Below are positions 7,873-48,922 of a DNA stretch of 64,000 nucleotides, in pieces. Made by a program: the position numbers and the translations under genes. The notes beneath the pieces were generated by a model, which saw nothing but the letters and a program-made list of their open reading frames with translations, was not told where the DNA came from and ran no database searches. Each line of letters opens with the position of its first letter. Positions within the stretch are counted from its first letter, which is position 1. Source of the DNA: Mollicutes bacterium (GTDB lineage Bacteria; Bacillota_I; Bacilli_A; Izemoplasmatales; Izemoplasmataceae); the NCBI GenBank assembly GCA_003558105.1, contig PWMS01000096.1, positions 1,083 through 65,082 on the forward strand, read 5' to 3'.

Positions 7873-9627
7873 ATGGAAACGTGGGATTTAAGTCCACTGT
7901 TTGAAAGTTATGATTCAAAAGCATTTAAAGATACCATCGCTACCATCGAAACCTTAATTGAAGAAGCCCAAGATTTTGCGAAAATGTTGGATGAACACAC
8001 CGATGAGGTGGCTATGATTAAAAAGTATTTAAACTTAGCCTCAGATTTAAGATCAAACTTTTTAAAAGCGTTTGGTTTTGTTAATCTATCCTTATCTACC
8101 AATGCTCAAGATGAAGCATCCAACACTTGGATGAACAAAATGCAACAACTTTCAAGTCAAACAACGACCTTTAACACCAAGTTCTCTAAATGGCTCCCAA
8201 ACGTCGAAAACCTAGACGCTTTGATCGAAAACGATGCGACGCTTAAGACCTATGAATACTATTTAAAAGCGATTGTCGATCGTTCTCAATACGTTTTAAG
8301 TGAAAAAGAAGAAGCGGTCATCTCAAAATTAACCCAGAGTGGTTCAAGTGCTTGGTCACAACTACAAGGCTTGCTGACCAGTATTTTAGACGTTGATTAT
8401 GACGGTGAAAAAATCACGTTAAGCGATATCAGGAACAAAGCACACGCGCGTGATCAAAAGGTACGTAAACAAGCCTATGAAGCCGAACTTGCGGCCTATA
8501 AAAAAATCGAACAATCGATCGCTTTCTCCTTAAACAGCATCAAAGGCGAAGTCAATGAAATCGTACAGATGCGTGGCTTTGATAGTGCCTTAGATGAAGC
8601 CGTCTATGATTCTAGAATGAAAAAAGAAACCTTGGATGCCTTGATCGCCAGCATGCGTGATCACTTGCCAATGTTCCGGTCGTATCTAAAACGAAAAGCC
8701 GATTTACTCGGGCATAAAAACGGTCTTCCGTGGTACGATCTCTTTGCCCCACTGGGCAAAAGTGAACGCGAGTTTAGTTCTAAGGAAGCTATGGACTACG
8801 TGATTAAAAACTTCCAAACCTTTGGTGATGATCTGGCCAACCTCGCGAAGCGCGCTTATGATTAAGCATGGATTGACTTTACCCCAAGAAGTGGGAAAAG
8901 AGGCGGCGCATTTTGTTTTAATATCCATCCCATCAAACAAAGCCGTATCTTAACCAACTTTGAAGGCTCGTTTTCCAATGTGATTACGCTAGCCCATGAA
9001 TTAGGCCATGCTTATCACGGAGACAAAATTTTCAACGAAAGTATATTGAACGCATCTTACACGATGCCTGTGGCCGAAACCGCTTCAACCTTATGTGAGA
9101 CCATCGTAAAAAAAGCGGCTATCAAAGATGCTCAAGACGAAGAAAAAATCTTTATCCTAGAACAATCCTTGATGGGCAGTACGCAAGTCATTGTTGATAT
9201 TTTATCGCGTTTCATCTTTGAGAAAAACGTCTTTGAACAACGCATGAACACCCCACTTTCTGTGGACAAACTCAAAACCATGATGCTTGATGCCCAAAAA
9301 GAAGCTTATGGCGATGGGTTGGACCAAGAAACCCTACATCCATATATGTGGATCAATAAGGGCCATTATTATCGGGGCTCTTTAAGTTTCTATAATTTCC
9401 CTTATGCGTTCGGGTTATTATTTGCTAAAGGTATCTATGCAATCTATCAAGAAAAGGGCCAAGATTTTGTCCCTAAAATTGACCATCTTTTACAAAAAAC
9501 CGGACAGATGGATGTCGAAGATGTGGCACAGTTAATCGGCATCGATGTTACGAAAAAGGCTTTTTGGGACAAATCCCTCAAAGTCATTAAAGAAGAGATT
9601 GATTTATTCTTAGATTTAACCCGATAA
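7873..9627 (+). pseudogene. M3B oligoendopeptidase F-like gene interrupted by one in-frame TAA (8863..8865)
   Basis: Track ORFs 7873..8865 and 8980..9627 are in the same frame. The codons between them (AWIDFTPRSGKRGGAFCFNIHPIKQSRILTNFEGSFSNV) contain no stop and continue the family alignment into the HELGH zinc site. The total of about 584 codons is the normal family length. Confidence 0.8.
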
Positions 9628-35966: not shown

Positions 35967-35985
35967 TATTTTGGAGGTTTTTTTT

Positions 35986-37365
35986 ATGCAAAAAGAAGCG
36001 CGCAGTCAAATGTTAGGTCATATGAATGTAAAAAAATTATTGGTTAAATTGTCGGTACCAGCCACGGTAGCGATGTTTATCAATGCGCTTTATAATTTTG
36101 TTGATACCTTGTTTGTATCTTGGTCTGATGGTGAGATTGCCATCGGCGCGCTTTCAATCGCCTTCCCGATTCAAATGATTGTCATTGCGATTGGTTTGAT
36201 GATTGGAATCGGAAGTTCATCAATCTTTTCTCGTGCTTATGGCCGTGGCGATGAGGATTCTATGCGACGCGTGGTTAATACCGCTTTATTGGTTACTTTG
36301 GTATTATCCGTTGTTATTACGACGATTGGCTTGTTCATGTTGGATGATTTACTTAGATTTTTTGGGGCGACCGCGTCGAATATCGGTTATGCAAAGGATT
36401 ATTTACGCTTAATTCTCATTGGACTAACCCCCTTTTCGTTATCGATTGTTTTAAACAATTTAACCAGAGCCGAAGGTCGGGCCAATGTGGCGATGTTTTC
36501 GCTTTTAATTGGTGCAGGGCTTAATATTATACTTGATCCCTTCTTTATATTTGATTTTGGTCTTGGTATGGGCGTCACCGGTGCAGCCTTGGCCACGGTA
36601 ATCTCGAAAACAGCCTCATTTATCTTCATCTTCATGATGGCTTTAAGCCCTAAATCGACCTTAAAAATTAATCTAAGGAAATTATACAAGGTCGATTTTA
36701 AGATGATCGGTGAAATTTCAGCGATTGGCATGCCGACATTTGTGAGAAATATTCTCGCGGCTGTCTTGGTTATTATCATCAACAATCTTATTAACTTTTA
36801 TGCGAGCGGTGATCCCGCTATTTATATTTCTATTTATGGTGTGATTACACGTATGACCATGTTTGCTTTATTACCTGGTTTAGGTCTTGTACAAGGCTTG
36901 ACCCCGATTGTGGGCTTTAATTTTGGGGCCCAATTTTACCGTCGTTTGCATGAAGTCATCAGCTATGCTACCAAGCTTTTGGTTGCGTATTTCTTTATTG
37001 TGTCTGTTTTGGTTATCATCTTTGCGGAATATATTTTCTTGATGTTTTCTAGTGGAGAGAATAGCGCATACTTCATTGAATATGGCGCGATGGCTTTACG
37101 GGTTGTTGCTTTAGGCTTCACCTTGATTTCTTTCCAAGTCCTTCTAAGCAGTACTTATCAAGCGATGGGCTATGCGTTTAGAGCTTTCATTGTCGCTTTA
37201 TCAAGACAGTTTTTCTTATTTGTACCATTGGCTTTCTTATTGACACAGTGGCTCGGCCTCAACGGTATATGGTGGGCTTTTGTTACCGCTGATGTGATTG
37301 CGGGCTTGTTATCCTTCGGTGTTTATATGTACGAAATGTATGACTTAAAACGAAAAATTGTCTAA
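35986..37365 (+). CDS. MATE-family efflux transporter
   Basis: 12-TM protein with the typical N-terminus LLVKLSVPATVAMFINALYNFVDTLFV. ATG 35986 follows GGAGG. Confidence 0.85.
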   Translation: MQKEARSQMLGHMNVKKLLVKLSVPATVAMFINALYNFVDTLFVSWSDGEIAIGALSIAFPIQMIVIAIGLMIGIGSSSIFSRAYGRGDEDSMRRVVNTALLVTLVLSVVITTIGLFMLDDLLRFFGATASNIGYAKDYLRLILIGLTPFSLSIVLNNLTRAEGRANVAMFSLLIGAGLNIILDPFFIFDFGLGMGVTGAALATVISKTASFIFIFMMALSPKSTLKINLRKLYKVDFKMIGEISAIGMPTFVRNILAAVLVIIINNLINFYASGDPAIYISIYGVITRMTMFALLPGLGLVQGLTPIVGFNFGAQFYRRLHEVISYATKLLVAYFFIVSVLVIIFAEYIFLMFSSGENSAYFIEYGAMALRVVALGFTLISFQVLLSSTYQAMGYAFRAFIVALSRQFFLFVPLAFLLTQWLGLNGIWWAFVTADVIAGLLSFGVYMYEMYDLKRKIV

Positions 37366-37396
37366 AAAAAGCCTGTTTGACTTTGAACAGGCTTTT
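37366..37396. terminator. Bidirectional terminator between the convergent MATE and GGDEF genes
   Basis: A-run, GCCTGTT...AACAGGC stem, T-run. Overlaps the GGDEF stop codon. Confidence 0.8.
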
Positions 37397-38378
37397 ATTG
37401 TGTCTTTTTTAGACTAGATTTGTTTTTGTACATTTGTTTATCGACATCGATTAATGATTCTTCGATTTCTTTCTTAGTAATCGCAGGATTTTTTTTCAAT
37501 ACTACAACCCCATAAGCGACCGAAACATTTTTGTGATATTTTTGTAAAAGATGGTTGATCTCGGTGATTAAAGCTTCAATATTGAGGGGTTTGTCTTTCG
37601 GGGTTAAAACTGCGAATTCGTCGCCCCCTATGCGGTAAAGCTCACTTTCGATGGGTTCAACTTTCTTTTGTACGAACGTTGAAAACTTAACCAAGACTTC
37701 ATCGCCCTTGGAATGGCCGAGTTCGTCATTTATCAGTTTAAAATTATTGAAGTCAATCATAATTAGTATCATACTTTGTTTTTTTGTCAAGGTTTGAATG
37801 TCTTTGAAAAATTTTCTTCGATTGCCGGTGTTGGTGAGATAATCCGTGTTACCGACACGATGTAACTTCTCATTCAACTCGGTTAACTCAACATTTCTTT
37901 GTTCAAGCTTTCTTTGCGTATTGATTAAATCGCTGTTCAATTTGGTGACTTCTTCTAAAAAAACGCTATTGTCATCATCACCAACTTGTTGTGAGAGGGC
38001 TTGAGCTCGCCTGAGCATATTGGTTTGCTGGTTGTTGATACGGATGACTTCGTTTAATACATGCAGGGTTGATTCTGATTCGTTTAAAGACATACAGATG
38101 ATGTCCTCACCATACTGTAACATCGATAATGTCGTCTTTATCATCTGGTCTTTGAAGCCAAAGACAATCTCACCACCAAAGCTATAATCATCTTCATTGG
38201 TGTCTTTTAAAAATTCCATGAAACGATTAAGGGAGGTAGGCTCTATGTAATTGACAAGATTATCGCCCTTATGAAACAATTTGACATCCTCATCTTGACC
38301 GATGACTTTTTTTATATAGGCTTCTTCATCGATGATAAGCGCAAAGGCCTCAGGCTGTTTTAGCGACAAGCTGACCAC
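37395..38378 (-). CDS. GGDEF-domain diguanylate cyclase with an unassigned N-terminal domain and a long coiled coil
   Basis: DYLTNTGNRRKF, IDFNNFKLINDELGHSKGDEVL and RIGGDEFAV. No RxxD five residues before GGDEF (the sequence is IESE). The exact start is uncertain (GTG 38378 or TTG 9 nt downstream). Confidence 0.85.
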   Translation of the reverse strand: MVSLSLKQPEAFALIIDEEAYIKKVIGQDEDVKLFHKGDNLVNYIEPTSLNRFMEFLKDTNEDDYSFGGEIVFGFKDQMIKTTLSMLQYGEDIICMSLNESESTLHVLNEVIRINNQQTNMLRRAQALSQQVGDDDNSVFLEEVTKLNSDLINTQRKLEQRNVELTELNEKLHRVGNTDYLTNTGNRRKFFKDIQTLTKKQSMILIMIDFNNFKLINDELGHSKGDEVLVKFSTFVQKKVEPIESELYRIGGDEFAVLTPKDKPLNIEALITEINHLLQKYHKNVSVAYGVVVLKKNPAITKKEIEESLIDVDKQMYKNKSSLKKTQ

Positions 38379-39363
38379 CTACCTTTAACGCATCGACAGC
38401 GTTTTTCGCAAACCCATCCGCACCGATTATATTGTGCAAAGCCGTATCGTGTAAGAAGGGTTGTCCTCCGATAATGATTTTAACGTGATCTAAACGCGTC
38501 TCATCACGAATCATTGCTACGGTTTTTTTCATATCACCGATATGGATGGGCAAAGTAATCGATAAGGCGATGATATCAGGTTGGAAATCTAGGGCATATG
38601 CAACAATTTCTTTTGGGGGAATATTACAGCCTAAATATTGGGTTTGATAGCCATCAATTTCAAAAAAGTCCATCACCATGCGAATACCGATTTCATGTAA
38701 TTCCTTACCAACCCCAGCCCCTAAGACTTTTTTATCGTGTTTTTGCATCGCAAAGATTTTCGGATAAAGGGTTGCGATGACAAACTGCGTGATGACCGTG
38801 GCTAAATGTTCGTCGGCCACGGTGATTTTTTTCGTTTGCCACAGGTAACCAATTTCATACAACGAAATTTGAATGACGTCCATATACAAGGTTTTTAAGT
38901 CCATACCATCCTCTAGATATTGATTGACAACTTGCAAGGCTTGTTCACGATTTTTGTTCAACAATGCATCTAAATAGAGTTTATGGACCGTGTGTTTTTC
39001 ATCTATTTTAAAAGGGTCTTTGATCGTTAGGCTTTGTTCTATATCTAAGTGTTCTAAAAACGTTTTTTGCGCTTCACTTAAATACGGTAACAATTTCTCG
39101 CTAATGACGCGATGCATCTTAAACAAGATATCTTTTTTTATGTTATAGGCCGATAAAGTATCGATCAACCAGCGGTAATAATTGATAATCAAAGTCGCGT
39201 TGATATTTTCAATCCCTTCCATGGTAAAAAGCAACGTGTAGCGAATATCACGCTTTTCTTTCTCAAGATGGGTTTGTGAACGGTTTTTGTAATCGGGGTT
39301 GATGACTTCTAAAATTTCTTGAACTAACCATTCTTTGTCGTTTTTAATATCATCTAAATTCAT
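38350..39363 (-). CDS. Stand-alone cobalamin-binding protein of CarH photoreceptor type, lacking a DNA-binding domain
   Basis: YLWQTKKITVADEH gives W-x9-EH. GKELHEIG followed by 41 residues, SIT, 28 residues and GG matches the (D/E)xHxxG-x41-Sxx-x26-28-GG B12 signature. ATG 39363 follows AAGGGGGA. The stop lies inside the GGDEF ORF. Confidence 0.75.
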   Translation of the reverse strand: MNLDDIKNDKEWLVQEILEVINPDYKNRSQTHLEKEKRDIRYTLLFTMEGIENINATLIINYYRWLIDTLSAYNIKKDILFKMHRVISEKLLPYLSEAQKTFLEHLDIEQSLTIKDPFKIDEKHTVHKLYLDALLNKNREQALQVVNQYLEDGMDLKTLYMDVIQISLYEIGYLWQTKKITVADEHLATVITQFVIATLYPKIFAMQKHDKKVLGAGVGKELHEIGIRMVMDFFEIDGYQTQYLGCNIPPKEIVAYALDFQPDIIALSITLPIHIGDMKKTVAMIRDETRLDHVKIIIGGQPFLHDTALHNIIGADGFAKNAVDALKVGGQLVAKTA

Positions 39364-39387
39364 CACAGTTTCCCCCTTATTAACCTT

Positions 39388-39396
39388 ATTATACCA
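39388..39396 (-). promoter_or_regulatory. Extended -10 element (TGGTATAAT) upstream of the B12-binding/GGDEF pair
   Basis: Minus strand TGGTATAAT 25 nt before ATG 39363. Overlapped by a 5-bp inverted repeat, ACCAT-TGTTAC-ATGGT (39392-39407). Confidence 0.5.
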
Positions 39397-39414
39397 TTGT
39401 TACATGGTAAACTT

Positions 39415-39444
39415 TAAAAAAACCACTAATAAAGTGGTTTTTTA
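39415..39444. terminator. Bidirectional hairpin terminating mrp and insulating it from the B12/GGDEF operon
   Basis: A8-ACCACT-AATAA-AGTGGT-T6. Confidence 0.8.
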
Positions 39445-39448
39445 AGAT

Positions 39449-40453
39449 TTAAGTTTCTTTAAGCAATTTGTTGGCAAGGCCTAAATAAGTCACACCGATT
39501 TCTTCGGTCATGTCAAATAGACTGTGATGACCACTCTTTGGTTGTCCGATAGGAATCTGTTGTAAGAGATCGGTTTTCAGTTTATCGGCGACTTCTTTAC
39601 CGCCACCTTTACCAAAGATTTCTAAAACTTCACCAGCATGGTATAAATAGCTCATATTCTCAACTACACCAATGAGTTTATGTTTTAATTGTTGTGCCGC
39701 AAAGCCCGCTTTAACCGCGATATGAGAGGCACTCGCGTGAGGGGTCGTAACGATGATCATTTCACATTCGGGAATCAATTTTTGAATGTCCATCGCGACA
39801 TCACCGGTTCCAGGCGGTAAATCGATTAAAACATACTCCAAATCATCGTTCCATTTAACATCGTAGAAGAAGTGGTTCAACATTTTTCCAAGCATCGGAC
39901 CACGCCACATTAAGGGTTGGTCGGGTTTTAAGAAAAACTCTGTGGAAATGAGTTCAACCCCTAATTTGCTGAAAGGAATAATCTTTTCATCTTCACCCGC
40001 CGTTGGCATGGCAATAGGCACATCCATAATCGTAGGAATAGAACTACCATAGATATCGGCATCGATGATCCCAACTTTTTTACCGAGTCGTTGTAAGGCG
40101 ATCGCTAAATTGGCTGCGACGGTTGATTTACCAACGCCGCCTTTCCCACTTGCGATGCCGATATAACGAATATCTTTATGCAATATACTTTCTTTTTTTT
40201 CGAGAAGTTCAAAATCAATCGATAAGCCGTGGTATTGCATATCAAGTTTGATAATTTTGGCAATTTTACGCTTGAGTTGTTGTTTTACCTTGTCGTCTTC
40301 TTTACCCAAAGCGATCAGTAAATTGACCGTTTTTTTACCATCGCTTTCATCAACACCAACATGTCTGATGGCTTTTGTTTCTTTGAAAGGTTTTTCATTC
40401 GAGGGATCGACAACCTCGCCCAAAGCTACTATAATTTTGTCTTTTTTATTCAT
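39449..40453 (-). CDS. mrp: Mrp/ApbC-family Fe-S cluster carrier ATPase with N-terminal DUF59-like domain
   Basis: Deviant Walker A GIASGKGGVGKSTVAANLA, and DLPPGTGD. ATG 40453 preferred to 40471. Confidence 0.85.
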   Translation of the reverse strand: MNKKDKIIVALGEVVDPSNEKPFKETKAIRHVGVDESDGKKTVNLLIALGKEDDKVKQQLKRKIAKIIKLDMQYHGLSIDFELLEKKESILHKDIRYIGIASGKGGVGKSTVAANLAIALQRLGKKVGIIDADIYGSSIPTIMDVPIAMPTAGEDEKIIPFSKLGVELISTEFFLKPDQPLMWRGPMLGKMLNHFFYDVKWNDDLEYVLIDLPPGTGDVAMDIQKLIPECEMIIVTTPHASASHIAVKAGFAAQQLKHKLIGVVENMSYLYHAGEVLEIFGKGGGKEVADKLKTDLLQQIPIGQPKSGHHSLFDMTEEIGVTYLGLANKLLKET

Positions 40454-40506
40454 CTTATCACCCGTATGCATTATATGCGAAAATCATGAAACGTTCAAAC
40501 AAAAAG

Positions 40507-47161: not shown

Positions 47162-48922
47162 TTATGCTTTAAGTGCAAGTTCAAGTTCATCAAGTAAGTT
47201 TTCTAAACGTTTTGCGACGGCTTCAAAAACATTCTTATCGGTTAAATCTAGTCCAGCACGCTCAACTTGTGCCATCGGGAAGTTATCGCCACCGGCTTTC
47301 AAAAGCGTCATATGTTTTTCGATGTTGCTGGGGTCTTCCTTAACCAATTCATAAAGTTTTAAACTAGCCGCAAAGCTTGTGGCGTATTGGTAGACATAAA
47401 ACGGGGCGAAGAACATGTGGGGAATATAGGCCCAAACATAAGATTTACCAGGTTCTTTTGAAATATCGATATCGTAGAAAGACAAGTAAAGGTCTTTCAT
47501 GATGTTGCTTAAGACTTCATGGGTGATGGGTTCACCTTTTTCCGCGATTTCATGCGCTTTTAATTCATAAGCGGCGAACAGGGTTTGACGGTAGAAGGTC
47601 CCCGCAATATCATCAATCGATTGTTGTAAGAGTTGTATTTTGTCTTCTTTTGTCCCCTTGTTGTTTTTGATAAAATGATCCAACAACAAATGTTCGTTAA
47701 AGGTTGAGGCGATTTCAGCTACAAAAATAGTGTAATTTTGGGTCGCCACCGGTTGGTGTTCTTTGGCGAACAAGGAATGCATGGAGTGTCCTGCTTCATG
47801 TGCCACGGTGAAGACATCACTTAAAGTATCATCGTAGTTGAGGAGAATAAAAGGATGCTCATTTAAGGCACTTGAAGAATAGGCCCCAGTGCGCTTGCCG
47901 TCTTGTTCATAAACATCAACATAGCCTTCTTTTAAGGCGTCATAGGCTTTATCTTTAAAGTCTTCTTCCAAGTGATCAATCGATTTAAAGAACATGTCCT
48001 TAGCTTCATCGTAAGAGAACTTTGAAGATGATTCCGCCAACGGCATAAAGCGATCGAAGGTGCGATGTTCATCTAAGTTCAAGTAGTCTTTGCGAATACG
48101 GTAGTATCGTTTCAACAAATCGGTACTGTTTTTAGCCACATCGATCAAATTATGATAAACAATTGGATCGATTTTATTGCCATGTAGGAAGCTTTCTAAA
48201 GAGCTGTTGTAACTGCGGCTACGCATATGGGCAATATCGGCTTGTAAAATGGTATTATATATTTCTGCAAACGTATGTTTATGTTGGTTATAATGATCGA
48301 ATACGGCTTTAAATACCAACTCTCTGTCTTCTTTATCTTGTAATTCTGCTAAATGACTTCGAAAGTTGCCTTGGGTAACACGGATGGTTTCACCGTTTTT
48401 AAGGGTAACGTCTTTCGCTTCATTATCGGCGGTACTAAGGGCACTGTGAAGTTCGCTACCTTGTGATGACAACAAGCTATAGTTGGCGAGTAACGCTTCT
48501 TTGTCCTTATCTAAAATATGCTCGCTTTGATGGAACAATTTTTCTAGTGGAAAACGGTATTCTTTCAAGCCTTCGTCTCGATCTAAAAATGCGAAAACTT
48601 TCTCTTTTCCAAGGGCTAAAATCTCCGGACGTTCAAAGGCGGTGTTTTGCGAATAAACATTTAGTAAATTCGCCATTTTTTGTACGCGAGCCGCATTGTC
48701 GACATCTTTTTTGTTGAGATCGCTTTTAAGCGATGCGTATTGATAGAGCTTATGCAATTTTACCGCAAGGTCCTTTTGTGTCTTATAGTACGTTTTAAAG
48801 GTTTCAAAATCCCCTAATTTACCTTGAAAGGAAGGCAAGGTTTCAATGGTTTTTTGCACATTGTCATACTCGCTTTTCCAAGAGTCAAGGTCTTCAAATA
48901 AATTTTTTAAATCCCAGTTCAT
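47162..48922 (-). CDS. pepF: Oligoendopeptidase F (M3B)
   Basis: 586 aa with the HEAGHSMH zinc motif. An intact paralogue of the interrupted gene at 7873..9627. Confidence 0.9.
   Translation of the reverse strand: MNWDLKNLFEDLDSWKSEYDNVQKTIETLPSFQGKLGDFETFKTYYKTQKDLAVKLHKLYQYASLKSDLNKKDVDNAARVQKMANLLNVYSQNTAFERPEILALGKEKVFAFLDRDEGLKEYRFPLEKLFHQSEHILDKDKEALLANYSLLSSQGSELHSALSTADNEAKDVTLKNGETIRVTQGNFRSHLAELQDKEDRELVFKAVFDHYNQHKHTFAEIYNTILQADIAHMRSRSYNSSLESFLHGNKIDPIVYHNLIDVAKNSTDLLKRYYRIRKDYLNLDEHRTFDRFMPLAESSSKFSYDEAKDMFFKSIDHLEEDFKDKAYDALKEGYVDVYEQDGKRTGAYSSSALNEHPFILLNYDDTLSDVFTVAHEAGHSMHSLFAKEHQPVATQNYTIFVAEIASTFNEHLLLDHFIKNNKGTKEDKIQLLQQSIDDIAGTFYRQTLFAAYELKAHEIAEKGEPITHEVLSNIMKDLYLSFYDIDISKEPGKSYVWAYIPHMFFAPFYVYQYATSFAASLKLYELVKEDPSNIEKHMTLLKAGGDNFPMAQVERAGLDLTDKNVFEAVAKRLENLLDELELALKA

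What the first reader, a model, noticed from the sequence alone, without database searches (positions are those of the whole stretch)
37395..39448. CarH-type cobalamin photoreceptor module without a DNA-binding domain, translationally coupled to a GGDEF diguanylate cyclase
**What the sequence shows.** Two minus-strand genes sit behind their own extended -10 element. Hairpin terminators insulate them on both sides.

The upstream gene (38350..39363, 337 aa) carries three features:
- A helical-bundle segment YLWQTKKITVADEHLA. This is W-x9-E-H, with the W codon at 38841-38839 and the EH codons at 38811-38806.
- A Rossmann-type B12 domain with E-L-H-E-I-G (38703-38686; His codon 38697-38695). It is followed by exactly 41 residues, then S-I-T, then 28 residues, then G-G.
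- No MerR or HTH domain. Instead there is a helical N-terminal region of about 130-150 aa in which I recognise no motif.

The stop codon of this gene lies 29 nt inside the next ORF (37395..38378). That ORF has an intact GGDEF domain (GNRRKF, NDELGHSKGD, RIGGDEFAV). It also has an unassigned N-terminal domain of about 110 aa and a long coiled coil.

**Established knowledge.**
- (D/E)xHxxG-x41-SxL/V-x26-28-GG is the lower-ligand cobalamin signature (Pfam B12-binding PF02310, with the cap domain PF02607).
- W-x9-EH is the signature of CarH-family AdoCbl photoreceptors, where it packs against the 5'-deoxyadenosyl group.
- Characterised members regulate transcription, either by DNA binding (CarH) or by antirepression (AerR/PpaA).

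**Inference.** A B12 and light (or B12-availability) sensor may control c-di-GMP synthesis through protein-protein contact with the cyclase. To my knowledge, such a two-protein arrangement has not been characterised experimentally.
Basis: partly seen in the sequence, partly recalled or inferred. Interest (0 to 1): 0.8.

Follow-up and report, generated by a model that had tools for sequence, protein, structure and literature searches.

The report
Split B12-bilin light sensor with diguanylate cyclase
Two overlapping genes in a wall-less sediment bacterium (Izemoplasmatales relative) encode a vitamin-B12 light-sensor protein of the recently described "photocobilin" type and a partner enzyme that makes the signalling molecule c-di-GMP; it is a natural two-protein version of a fused system characterised in 2024, so it is a new member of a known kind, not a new kind.

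Summary
In detail: every motif, spacing and coordinate was verified.

**The sensor (38350..39363, minus strand)**
- It has a CarH-like AdoCbl module (Pfam B12-binding_2 1e-12, B12-binding 5e-22).
- W175, E185-H186 and H223 align with Trp61, Glu71-His72 and His108 of the solved photoreceptor SasPcob.
- These residues are invariant in 65 homologues.
- The "motif-less" N-terminus is a photoglobin, a bilin-binding globin. Its profile hits allophycocyanins and the SasPcob globin at about 1e-6, and the best fold match is 8J2W.
- The protein is therefore a photocobilin with the globin placed first.

**The cyclase (37395..38369/38378)**
- It overlaps the sensor gene by 20-29 nt.
- The pair is conserved in Izemoplasmatales, Acholeplasmatales and other Mollicutes MAGs at 38-69% sensor identity, in different flanks.

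**What is already known**
- Zhang et al. 2024 showed light activation of a fused photocobilin-cyclase.
- The same paper showed activation in trans with separated domains.
- Schneider et al. 2021 described such operons computationally.

**What this work adds**
- The first ~175 residues of the cyclase form a module with no Pfam or PDB sequence match.
- The module heads at least 747 protein clusters (histidine kinases, GGDEF, SpoIIE).
- These proteins usually sit just downstream of such sensors.
- It is probably the sensor-receiving module.

No biochemistry was possible. Interest is moderate.

The parts
39417..39443 (-). Intrinsic-terminator-like hairpin plus T-run ending the upstream Mrp/ParA-type gene (39449..40471). 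It insulates the pair on the 5' side.
   Evidence: Folds at -11.6 kcal/mol, z -4.1, with 0 of 200 shuffles as stable. Sequence read.
39388..39396 (-). Extended -10 element TGgTATAAT. It is the probable promoter of the two-gene operon. There is no convincing -35.
   Evidence: Direct reading. Not listed as a full sigma-70 site by the consensus scan.
39371..39378 (-). Shine-Dalgarno-like AAGGGGGA, 7 nt before ATG 39363.
   Evidence: Direct reading.
38350..39363 (-). Sensor gene: a photocobilin-type protein of 337 aa, built as photoglobin + four-helix bundle + Rossmann B12 domain.
   Evidence: AlphaFold2 model has mean pLDDT 94.6 and pTM 0.90.
38989..39363 (-). Photoglobin (bilin-binding globin) domain, residues 1-125. 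R38-D39 and W65 align with the bilin-contacting Asp270 and Trp296 of SasPcob. There is no Cys at the CxRD/CxQD position (E36).
   Evidence: Profile A3 against PDB hits allophycocyanins at 9e-7 to 1e-6, SasPcob 8J2W residues 227-319 at 3.5e-6 and AbPcob 8J2Y at 3e-4. Domain model pLDDT is 92. Foldseek top hit is 8J2W (TMq 0.65, rmsd 2.6 A), followed by phycobiliproteins and smURFP.
38767..38976 (-). Four-helix-bundle cap (Pfam B12-binding_2), residues 130-199. It carries G172-x-x-W175 and E185-H186, the W-x9-EH adenosyl pocket.
   Evidence: Residue-by-residue alignment to SasPcob. Invariant in 65 homologues.
38386..38730 (-). Rossmann B12-binding domain, residues 212-326. It carries E221-x-H223 (lower axial His), G245-x3-P249, S268 and G299-G300.
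   Evidence: Foldseek matches photoreceptor cobalamin-binding domains 8JBS, 8J2W/X/Y and 5C8A at rmsd 2.2-3.7 A.
37395..38378 (-). Effector gene: a diguanylate cyclase, 327 aa from GTG 38378. The start is more likely TTG 38369 (324 aa), preceded by AAAGGTAGGTGG. It overlaps the sensor gene by 20-29 nt.
   Evidence: P0121, the 324-aa call of the 99%-identical protein.
38043..38378 (-). N-terminal alpha/beta-looking domain of the cyclase, about residues 1-112. It is the first part of a conserved partner module with no Pfam or PDB sequence match.
37854..38042 (-). Helix 'VIRINNQQTNMLRR' followed by the coiled coil 'LNSDLINTQRKLEQRNVELTELN', residues 113-175. This is the second, most conserved part of the partner module and links to the GGDEF domain.
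   Evidence: N148 and R156 are invariant across partners of GGDEF and HisKA type. The Paenibacillus, Saccharibacillus and Bacteroidota partners that lack the N-domain keep this motif.
37413..37850 (-). GGDEF catalytic domain, residues 177-322, with an intact RIGGDEF. There is no RxxD inhibitory site (P-I-E-S at -9..-6).
   Evidence: Direct reading of the translation.
37367..37396 (-). Bidirectional terminator hairpin shared with the convergent MatE/MurJ-type gene (35971..37365).
   Evidence: Folds at -13.5 kcal/mol, z -4.6. Also found by the consensus scan.

Best explanation
The two genes form one operon. It encodes a two-protein photoreceptor-effector system of the photocobilin kind.

**The sensor.**
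- The 337-aa protein binds adenosylcobalamin in a CarH-like pocket, base-off and His-on through H223. W175 and E185-H186 hold the adenosyl group.
- It probably also binds a linear tetrapyrrole non-covalently in its N-terminal photoglobin domain. That domain packs against the corrin.

**The signalling steps.**
1. In the dark, the AdoCbl-loaded sensor is a head-to-tail dimer.
2. Green light breaks the Co-C bond, and so does red light if a bilin is bound.
3. The adenosyl group leaves, the E185/H186 helix shifts, and the sensor changes its quaternary state.
4. The sensor contacts the cyclase through the cyclase's N-terminal ~175-residue module, which is a small domain plus a signalling coiled coil.
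5. The change in the sensor is passed down the coiled coil and alters how the two GGDEF domains meet.
6. This changes c-di-GMP synthesis. By analogy with AbDPcob, light most likely increases it.

**Shown here.** Domain identities, motif conservation, gene-pair conservation, and the partner module shared across output types.

**Inferred.** Cofactor binding, photochemistry, the physical contact and its site, and the sign of regulation.
For: **Sensor identity.**
- Pfam B12-binding_2 and B12-binding are both present.
- The phmmer alignment to SasPcob (8J2W, E=4e-17) places W175, E185, H186 and H223 on its Trp61, Glu71, His72 and His108. Numbering was checked against PMC10979010.
- These residues, plus G245/P249 of the GxxxP element of the SignatureFinder light-response signature, are invariant in 65 homologues.
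- Foldseek puts the B12 part closest to photoreceptor cobalamin-binding domains (8JBS, 8J2W/X/Y; rmsd 2.2-2.8 A).

**Photoglobin.**
- The N-terminal profile hits allophycocyanins and the SasPcob and AbPcob globin domains. D39 and W65 fall on the bilin ligands Asp270 and Trp296.
- The fold search is topped by 8J2W, followed by phycobiliproteins.

**Coupling.**
- The genes overlap by 20-29 nt, with a single promoter-like element and flanking terminators.
- The same overlapping sensor+GGDEF pair occurs in seven sampled homologues with three kinds of flanks (L001, L003, L005, L006/L007, L008, L014, L090). Five come from Mollicutes-labelled assemblies or share the window's synteny.

**Partner module.**
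- 40 of 49 genes directly downstream of homologous sensors, across many phyla, share the whole N-terminal 175-aa module of this cyclase. Another 8 share only its coiled-coil motif. Their outputs are HisKA/HATPase (37-39) or GGDEF (7).
- The module heads 747 clusters (E<=1e-10), always at the N-terminus. Outputs among the top 120 are HisKA 80, GGDEF 23, SpoIIE 2 and a class III cyclase 1.
- In reverse look-ups, 4 of 5 complete loci have a B12-binding_2+B12-binding gene immediately upstream.

**Precedent (PMC10979010).**
- The fused AbDPcob is activated more than 10-fold by light, and only with AdoCbl.
- Separate photocobilin proteins activate the isolated cyclase domain in a concentration-dependent way.
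Against: - There is no experimental datum for this protein pair.
- No complex structure prediction could be run.
- The domain order (globin first) is the reverse of both solved photocobilins. The relative packing of globin and corrin is therefore assumed, not shown.
- The window holds no cobalamin uptake or adenosylation gene, no haem oxygenase, and no ABM monooxygenase. ABM is present upstream of the sensor in 19 of 25 sampled loci of other lineages. No other c-di-GMP gene was seen among the 30 ORFs scanned plus those identified by synteny, so the supply of both chromophores is unknown.
- Relatives are Izemoplasmatales and Acholeplasmatales from sediments and soda lakes, where light may be scarce.
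- The GxxH element of the published signature reads GxxxH here (G219-K-E-L-H223).
- The residue after Trp is Gln, not the His that forms the bis-His light state in CarH. SasPcob also has Gln there.
- The sign of regulation is uncertain. In vitro, AdoCbl-only SasPcob had the opposite effect to holo-SasPcob.
- One module-bearing kinase (L095) has no sensor gene next to it.
Confidence: 0.65

Rival explanations
1. The sensor reports cobalamin availability, cobalt redox state or oxygen in the dark, not light. It would work as the B12-binding antirepressors AerR/PpaA do, and adjust c-di-GMP to corrinoid supply in a B12-auxotrophic sediment fermenter.
For: - Close relatives come from Izemoplasmatales, Acholeplasmatales and other Mollicutes MAGs of sediments and soda lakes.
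- No chromophore-supply genes are present in the 64-kb window.
- In AbDPcob, AdoCbl binding alone already lowers activity relative to the apo protein. Cofactor occupancy is therefore itself a signal.
Against: - The full adenosyl-pocket motif (W-x9-EH) is invariant. That motif marks light-responsive domains.
- A bilin-type globin with conserved ligand residues is fused to it. A pure B12 gauge would not need this.
- In other lineages the cassette often carries an ABM monooxygenase upstream (19 of 25 loci). The photoglobin paper lists ABM monooxygenase and haem oxygenase among the oxygenases it found in photoglobin operons.
Confidence: 0.17
2. The two proteins are co-expressed but do not touch. 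The cyclase would be controlled by a ligand sensed by its own N-terminal domain, and the B12 protein would act on another target.
For: - The N-terminal domain of the cyclase has the look of a small alpha/beta sensor domain.
- One module-bearing kinase lacks an adjacent sensor gene (L095).
- The interaction itself was not tested here.
Against: - The overlap and adjacency are kept across many phyla and across changes of output domain.
- Fused versions exist in nature (AbDPcob).
- An interaction in trans has been shown for the separated domains.
Confidence: 0.12
3. The B12 protein is a corrinoid methyl-carrier of the MtaC/MtbC/MtgC type, serving a methyltransferase.
For: - The best NCBIfam hits by E-value are MtgC, MtbC and pyl_corrinoid (8.6e-20 to 1.3e-13).
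- Some database records name homologues 'methanogenic corrinoid protein MtbC1'.
- Methyl-carrier structures appear among the fold hits (7XCN, 3EZX).
Against: - All those scores are far below the curated cut-offs (71 against 370, 54 against 310, 51 against 350).
- The W-x9-EH residues align with the photoreceptors.
- A photoglobin domain is fused to the protein.
- No methyltransferase gene is nearby in any of the loci examined.
- The rmsd to 7XCN is 8.6-9.1 A, against 2.2-2.8 A to the photoreceptor domains.
Confidence: 0.02

Closest known systems
AbDPcob, the photocobilin-diguanylate cyclase fusion of an Acidimicrobiaceae bacterium (Zhang et al. 2024, PMC10979010; PDB 8J2Y for the sensor part)
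   Same: - It has the same three sensor domains (four-helix bundle, Rossmann B12 domain, photoglobin) and the same GGDEF output.
- It has the W-x9-EH and ExH motifs.
- Light with AdoCbl raises cyclase activity more than 10-fold.
- The separated sensor activates the separated cyclase domain in trans.
   Different: - Here the sensor and cyclase are two polypeptides from overlapping genes.
- The globin is N-terminal, not C-terminal to the B12 domain.
- The bilin-ligand Asp is kept here (D39), whereas AbPcob has His and binds biliverdin poorly.
- The cyclase carries its own 175-residue N-terminal module in place of a flexible linker.
- Sequence similarity is low (E=8e-10 on the B12 part).
SasPcob, the standalone photocobilin of Saccharothrix syringae (PDB 8J2W dark, 8J2X light)
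   Same: - It is a standalone sensor without an output domain.
- It is the best PDB sequence match (4e-17) and the best fold match for both parts.
- Trp61, Glu71, His72, His108, Asp270 and Trp296 all have aligned counterparts here (W175, E185, H186, H223, D39, W65).
- It has Gln after the Trp, and no Cys for covalent bilin attachment.
   Different: - The domain order is permuted.
- Its genomic partners are STAS/SpoIIE-type proteins, and its natural target is unknown.
- Here the cognate target is evident from the gene overlap.
Photoglobin + B12-binding genes in signal-transduction operons (Schneider et al. 2021, PMC8717448)
   Same: - This is the computationally defined family (5975 photoglobin genes) to which the sensor belongs.
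- The paper notes fusion and operonic linkage with histidine kinases, GGDEF, SpoIIE, ABM monooxygenase and haem oxygenase.
- The authors state that none of the loci has been studied experimentally.
   Different: - In the passages I read, that work does not define the N-terminal module shared by the downstream effectors.
- I found no mention of Tenericutes in its main text. The term Mollicutes was not searched.
CarH/LitR, the MerR-family AdoCbl photoreceptor repressors (T. thermophilus CarH, PDB 5C8A/5C8D)
   Same: - It has the same four-helix bundle + Rossmann module, with W-x9-EH and the lower axial His.
- Light-driven loss of the adenosyl group changes its oligomeric state.
   Different: - The window protein has no MerR HTH domain, so there is no DNA binding.
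- It has no His after the Trp, so no bis-His light state is expected.
- It has an added globin domain.
- Its output is an enzyme partner, not transcription.

Membership tests
Photocobilin (photoglobin + CarH-like AdoCbl domain) | Four-helix-bundle cap plus Rossmann cobalamin-binding domain | tested here: met
   Pfam PF02607 at 1.3e-12 (residues 130-199) and PF02310 at 5.4e-22 (residues 212-326). Foldseek to 8J2W/8J2X/8J2Y/8JBS gives rmsd 2.2-2.8 A over about 205-217 columns.
Photocobilin (photoglobin + CarH-like AdoCbl domain) | W-x9-EH adenosyl-pocket motif and (D/E)xH lower axial His, aligned to the solved proteins | tested here: met
   W175, E185, H186 and H223 align to SasPcob Trp61, Glu71, His72 and His108 (numbering). 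They are invariant in 65 homologues.
Photocobilin (photoglobin + CarH-like AdoCbl domain) | Fused photoglobin (phycobiliprotein-like five-helix globin) domain | tested here: met
   Profile of residues 1-125 against PDB hits ApcF at 8.6e-7, 8J2W residues 227-319 at 3.5e-6 and 8J2Y at 3.2e-4. The fold search is topped by 8J2W (TMq 0.65) and then phycobiliproteins. The domain order is reversed relative to the solved members. Zhang et al. note that both orders exist.
Photocobilin (photoglobin + CarH-like AdoCbl domain) | Bilin-contacting Asp and Trp of the globin pocket (SasPcob Asp270, Trp296) | tested here: met
   D39 (at least 90% conserved) and W65 (invariant) fall on these positions in the profile alignment. 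R38-D39 matches the 'RD' of the CxRD bilin motif. The Cys position is Glu, so binding would be non-covalent at most.
Photocobilin (photoglobin + CarH-like AdoCbl domain) | Binds AdoCbl and biliverdin, with green- and red-light-driven Co-C cleavage | not testable with these tools
   Needs purified protein and UV-vis spectroscopy.
Photocobilin (photoglobin + CarH-like AdoCbl domain) | Full SignatureFinder light-response signature (GxxW, EH, GxxH, GxxxP) | tested here: inconclusive
   GxxW (G172..W175), EH and GxxxP (G245..P249) are present. GxxH reads G219-K-E-L-H223, one residue longer.
CarH/LitR MerR-family photoreceptor repressors | N-terminal MerR-type helix-turn-helix DNA-binding domain | tested here: not met
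   No HTH or MerR Pfam hit at E<=1. The NCBIfam CarH model scores 35.9 bits against a cut-off of 400 and matches only model positions 87-226. The N-terminus is a globin.
CarH/LitR MerR-family photoreceptor repressors | His next to the pocket Trp (TtCarH His132), which becomes the upper ligand in the bis-His light state | tested here: not met
   W175 is followed by Q176, as in SasPcob (W-Q). The SasPcob light state is water/hydroxide-ligated.
Corrinoid methyl-carrier proteins (MtaC/MtbC/MtgC) | Score above the curated family cut-off | tested here: not met
   MtgC scores 71.1 against 370 and 54.3 against 310. MtbC scores 51.2 against 350. MtaC scores 21.7 against 450.
Corrinoid methyl-carrier proteins (MtaC/MtbC/MtgC) | Cognate methyltransferase genes adjacent | tested here: not met
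   In the window and in related loci (L001, L003, L005-L009) the neighbours are Mrp/ParA, MatE, GGDEF, HisKA and similar. No methyltransferase of that kind is present.
Active GGDEF diguanylate cyclases | Intact GG(D/E)EF active-site loop and conserved substrate/metal residues | tested here: met
   PF00990 at 1.5e-24 over profile positions 2-157 of 161. RIGGDEF, the D of MIDFNNFK and the N..HxxGD of NDELGHSKGD are read. The allosteric RxxD I-site is absent (P-I-E-S), so no product inhibition is expected.
Active GGDEF diguanylate cyclases | c-di-GMP synthesis from GTP | not testable with these tools
   Needs an enzyme assay.
AerR/PpaA B12-binding antirepressors | Binds a CrtJ/PpsR-type repressor, and uses hydroxocobalamin with two His ligands | not tested
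   No PpsR/CrtJ-type gene was seen among the scanned ORFs of the window, but no specific comparison was made.

The most novel reading that the evidence does not exclude
The first ~175 residues of the cyclase are a small alpha/beta-looking domain, an 'INNEQxNxLR' helix and an 'LNNELxNxQRELxKKNxEL' coiled coil. Together they may form a dedicated, so far unnamed receiver module for standalone photocobilins.

- The module would dock the B12-bilin sensor and relay its light state to interchangeable outputs: histidine kinase, GGDEF, SpoIIE phosphatase, a class III nucleotide cyclase or a Cys-rich tail.
- That would define a widespread two-protein photoreceptor-transducer system, at least 747 clusters at 50% identity across many phyla and including archaeal MAGs. 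It would be analogous in logic to sensory rhodopsin with its Htr transducer.
- This Mollicutes-lineage pair would be a minimal, soluble, cognate example of it.
Probability: 0.4. Interest if true: 0.6.

Novelty: new member of a known kind. Interest (0 to 1): 0.4.

Why it matters
- Photocobilins were characterised only in 2024. The authors themselves say that the function of standalone photocobilins is unclear.
- This locus and its many relatives show that the standalone form normally comes with an obvious cognate effector, encoded by an overlapping gene.
- Those effectors share one N-terminal module whatever their output. This gives a concrete, testable answer to how standalone B12-bilin sensors signal.
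- The pair is a small natural cognate system: two soluble proteins of about 330 aa, with no membrane parts and no product-inhibition site. It suits biochemistry and green/red-light optogenetic control of c-di-GMP.
- It also places light or B12-linked c-di-GMP signalling in the wall-less Izemoplasmatales/Acholeplasmatales lineage, where sensory biology is little known.
- It does not reveal a new kind of system.

Tried and rejected
1. **Whole-protein Foldseek.** Only the B12 part aligned (~209 columns), because the globin is permuted relative to the solved photocobilins. I solved this by modelling residues 1-125 alone.
2. **Word-indexed protein search with the cyclase N-terminus.** It found nothing. 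With alignment A4 it returned only 11 proteins.
3. **Exhaustive representative search with A4.** It was rerun with an allowed alignment, A5.
4. **Is the cyclase N-domain a PAS domain?**
   - hhalign against PYP gave E=0.029 and probability 1.7%.
   - hhalign against LOV2 gave E=0.16.
   - hhalign against an alignment of residues 171-330 of longer partners (presumed to hold their internal PAS domains) gave E=0.041.
   - jackhmmer and phmmer seeding with LOV2 found nothing usable.
   - The result is inconclusive and the fold is left unassigned.
5. **Sequence searches of the module.** The profile against PDB gave 0 hits at E<=10. Pfam at E<=1 gave only coiled-coil noise.
6. **Methyl-carrier reading.** Rejected (cut-offs).
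7. **Chromophore and c-di-GMP genes in the window.** I looked for cobalamin uptake or adenosylation, haem oxygenase, EAL/HD-GYP and PilZ genes. The 30 ORFs scanned are housekeeping genes. The rest of the genome is not available.
8. **Upstream protein of the exception locus L095.** It is not a photoglobin.

Full report
**1. Observation**

ORF listing and direct reading confirm two minus-strand genes.
- The sensor is 38350..39363 (337 aa from ATG).
- The cyclase is 37395..38378 (327 aa from GTG).
- All quoted codon positions are correct: W175 at 38841-38839, E185-H186 at 38811-38806, and E221-L-H223-E-I-G226 at 38703-38686.
- The spacings are also correct: 41 residues to S268-I-T, then 28 residues to G299-G300.

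Pfam finds these domains:

| Domain | Residues | E-value |
|---|---|---|
| B12-binding_2 | 130-199 (sensor) | 1.3e-12 |
| B12-binding | 212-326 (sensor) | 5.4e-22 |
| GGDEF | 177-322 (cyclase) | 1.5e-24 |

No HTH domain was found.

The sensor's stop codon lies 29 nt inside the GTG-started cyclase ORF.
- The public gene call of the 99%-identical protein starts at TTG 38369 (P0121, 324 aa).
- That TTG is preceded by AAAGGTAGGTGG, so the overlap is more likely 20 nt.

An extended -10 (TGgTATAAT, 39396-39388) is present without a good -35. Terminator-like hairpins flank the pair: 39417-39443 (z -4.1) and 37367-37396 (z -4.6).

**2. What the sensor is**

*The B12 half.*
- The best PDB sequence matches are SasPcob (8J2W/8J2X, E=4e-17) and AbPcob (8J2Y). 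These are the two photocobilins solved in 2024. A CarH-like domain from Chloracidobacterium (8JBS) also matches.
- The printed alignment puts W175, E185, H186 and H223 on SasPcob chain positions 55, 65, 66 and 102. These correspond to Trp61, Glu71, His72 and His108 in the paper's numbering.
- In an alignment of 65 homologues, W175, E185, H186, E221, H223, G226, G245, P249, S268, G299 and G300 are invariant.
- An AlphaFold2 model is confident (pLDDT 94.6, pTM 0.90). Its B12 half superposes best on photoreceptor cobalamin domains (8JBS, 8J2W/X/Y at 2.2-2.8 A). It fits methyl-carrier complexes poorly (7XCN, about 9 A).
- NCBIfam hits to MtgC, MtbC, MtaC and CarH are all far below their cut-offs.

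They form a photoglobin.
- Many homologues carry a precomputed weak Phycobilisome (PF00502) hit.
- A profile of this region (A3) hits allophycocyanin subunits at about 1e-6. It hits the C-terminal globin of SasPcob (residues 227-319) at 3.5e-6 and that of AbPcob at 3.2e-4.
- The domain modelled alone (pLDDT 92) has 8J2W as its best structural match (TMq 0.65, 2.6 A). It is followed exclusively by phycobiliproteins and biliverdin-binding smURFP.
- In the profile alignment the near-invariant D39 and invariant W65 fall on SasPcob Asp270 and Trp296. These residues hold biliverdin and contact the corrin.
- The motif reads E36-K-R38-D39. The 'RD' of the phycobiliprotein CxRD motif is kept but the Cys is not, as in the non-covalent SasPcob.

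The protein is therefore a photocobilin with the globin placed first. Zhang et al. note this arrangement among predicted members.

**3. The pair and its relatives**

The same overlapping sensor+GGDEF pair occurs in seven sampled homologues with 38-69% sensor identity. Five of them come from assemblies labelled Izemoplasmatales or Acholeplasmatales, or share the window's synteny. The flanks are of three kinds:
- the same Mrp/HIGH-NTase/MatE synteny as the window (L001, L006/7, L008);
- a gyrase/PlsY context (L003);
- unrelated contexts (L005, L090).

The closest GTDB species representative is an uncultured Candidatus Izemoplasmatales bacterium (69% identity), order Izemoplasmatales, class Mollicutes. 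The rest of the window is housekeeping and consistent with that lineage: PolC, PheST, AddAB, RecG, PlsX, AlaS and others.

The sensor family is very large. At least 542 loci in one-genome-per-species GTDB contigs encode a relative. Sampled lineages include Paenibacillus, Balneolales, Bacteroidota, Chloroflexota, Spirochaetes, Deltaproteobacteria and archaeal MAGs.

In 49 sampled loci the gene directly downstream starts within a few bases of, or overlaps, the sensor's stop. It encodes a HisKA/HATPase kinase in 37-39 cases and a GGDEF protein in 7. In the non-Mollicutes lineages sampled, an ABM-family monooxygenase often sits just upstream (19 of 25 sampled). The photoglobin paper lists ABM monooxygenase and haem oxygenase among photoglobin-operon oxygenases. 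The window has no such gene next to the pair.

**4. The partner module**

The cyclase's N-terminal 175 residues are shared with these downstream proteins irrespective of output.
- jackhmmer seeded with the window sequence recovers the whole module in 40 of 49 partners. In 8 more (Paenibacillus, Saccharibacillus and Bacteroidota loci) it recovers only the coiled-coil part.
- The alignment shows a ~112-residue domain with an alternating beta/alpha-like conservation pattern. Then comes 'ELMxINNEQxNxLR', a variable acidic linker, and 'LNNELxNxQRELxKKNxELExLN'. N148 and R156 are invariant.
- The module has no PDB sequence match at E<=10. It has no Pfam match beyond coiled-coil noise.
- An exhaustive profile search of 1.84 billion representatives finds it in 747 clusters at E<=1e-10 (1305 at E<=1e-3). 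Among the 150 best listed it begins within the first ~30 residues in 148.
- Among the best 120, outputs are HisKA 80, GGDEF 23, REC 10, SpoIIE 2 and a class III cyclase 1.
- Reverse look-ups of six such proteins show a B12-binding_2+B12-binding gene immediately upstream in four of five complete loci. There is one exception (L095) and one truncated contig.

This reciprocal, output-independent linkage is the main comparative argument that the sensor acts on the effector through this module. Whether the small domain is PAS-like could not be settled.

**5. Mechanism**

Steps established for homologues (PMC10979010):
- AdoCbl binds base-off/His-on.
- The adenosyl group stacks on the Trp and is bridged across a head-to-tail dimer by Glu-His.
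- Green light cleaves Co-C, and red light does so through bound biliverdin.
- The Glu/His helix moves ~2.4 A and the SasPcob dimer falls apart.
- In the fusion AbDPcob the protein stays dimeric but expands, and kcat of the cyclase rises more than 10-fold. This happens only with AdoCbl.
- Separated sensor domains activate the isolated cyclase domain in a concentration-dependent manner.

By inference the window pair works the same way in trans. The cyclase's N-module would be the docking and relay element, and its coiled coil would set the geometry of the two GGDEF domains. The cyclase has an intact RIGGDEF and substrate/metal residues but no RxxD inhibitory site. Its output would therefore depend mainly on the sensor.

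I put 0.65 on this overall reading. Within it, I put about even odds on 'light activates' rather than 'light inhibits'.

**6. Rivals**

| Reading | Confidence | Main points |
|---|---|---|
| Dark B12/redox gauge | 0.17 | Fits the sediment habitat and the lack of chromophore genes in the window. Does not explain the invariant adenosyl pocket or the conserved bilin-type globin. |
| Mere co-expression without contact | 0.12 | Hard to square with the conserved overlap and the module/sensor co-occurrence. |
| Methyl-carrier protein | 0.02 | Effectively excluded. |

**7. Comparison with what is known, and novelty**

The sensor meets every sequence- and fold-level criterion of the photocobilin family that can be tested here. 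It fails the CarH criteria of a MerR domain and the His following the Trp.

The concept is already published.
- Photoglobin-B12 sensors linked to signalling genes, including GGDEF, appeared in 2021 (PMC8717448).
- Light control of a diguanylate cyclase by a photocobilin, fused and in trans, was demonstrated in 2024 (PMC10979010).
- A 2024 signature-mining paper also lists DGC-linked light-responsive B12 domains (PMC11796333).

I therefore rate this a new member of a known kind.

What appears not to be described in the papers I could read is the shared N-terminal module of the effectors. The Mollicutes-lineage pairs are also compact natural cognate examples. The most novel reading not excluded is that this module defines a general photocobilin-transducer system (probability about 0.4).

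**8. Limits**

- No biochemistry and no complex prediction were possible.
- Only 64 kb of the genome is available.
- Literature coverage is limited to open-access full texts.

Noticed in passing
window 37854..38378 (-), and loci L010-L089 downstream genes: The N-terminal ~175 aa of the cyclase is a conserved module. It consists of a small domain, an INNEQxNxLR helix and an LNNELxNxQRELxKKNxEL coiled coil. It has no Pfam or PDB sequence match. It heads at least 747 protein clusters with HisKA, GGDEF, SpoIIE or class III cyclase outputs, usually just downstream of a photoglobin-B12 gene.
   Followed up: yes
L016:5238-5549, L020:5544-5843, L023:765-1064 and 16 other loci (upstream of the sensor gene): A ~100-aa ABM-family monooxygenase gene sits immediately upstream of the sensor in 19 of 25 sampled loci (Balneolales, Bacteroidota and others). 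It may be a bilin-producing haem-degrading enzyme (my inference). It is absent from the window and from the Mollicutes-lineage loci, so their bilin source, if any, is unknown.
   Followed up: partly
L063:4279-5013 (proteins P0124, P0125): A 243-aa protein carries the same partner module followed only by a short Cys-rich tail (LIPICASCKKIRD...HGLCDECAHKLYP). It has no kinase or cyclase domain, and this output type is unassigned.
   Followed up: no
L092:3501-5351 (protein P0137): One 616-aa partner carries the module followed by both a GGDEF domain and HisKA+HATPase. It overlaps the sensor gene by 4 nt and lies in a large PAS/GAF/REC signalling cluster.
   Followed up: no
L017, L021, L033, L048, L049 (Paenibacillus/Saccharibacillus) and L052, L062, L073 (Bacteroidota); downstream genes: The partners here lack the small N-domain but keep the LNNEL..QReL coiled-coil motif at their extreme N-terminus. 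They are ~560-580 aa in Paenibacillus/Saccharibacillus and ~270-290 aa in the Bacteroidota loci. In three of the sampled loci the gene just upstream of the sensor is of MarR type. This suggests that the coiled coil is the minimal conserved element.
   Followed up: partly
L095:1223-4100: This is an exception. A 771-aa PAS-HisKA kinase with the partner module is preceded by a 169-aa protein with no Pfam hit. That protein is not a photoglobin (hhalign E=0.28), and no B12 gene is adjacent.
   Followed up: partly
window 7873..8865 and 8980..9627 (+): An oligopeptidase F (M3) gene appears split into two ORFs, one with Peptidase_M3_N only and one with the C-terminal part of Peptidase_M3. It may be a frameshifted pseudogene or an assembly error. 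An intact paralogue lies at 47162..48922 (-).
   Followed up: no
L003:6911-7891: In the Acholeplasmatales MAG a radical-SAM gene overlaps the 3' end of the cyclase gene by ~60 nt. It may be a third member of that operon. It is not present in the window.
   Followed up: no
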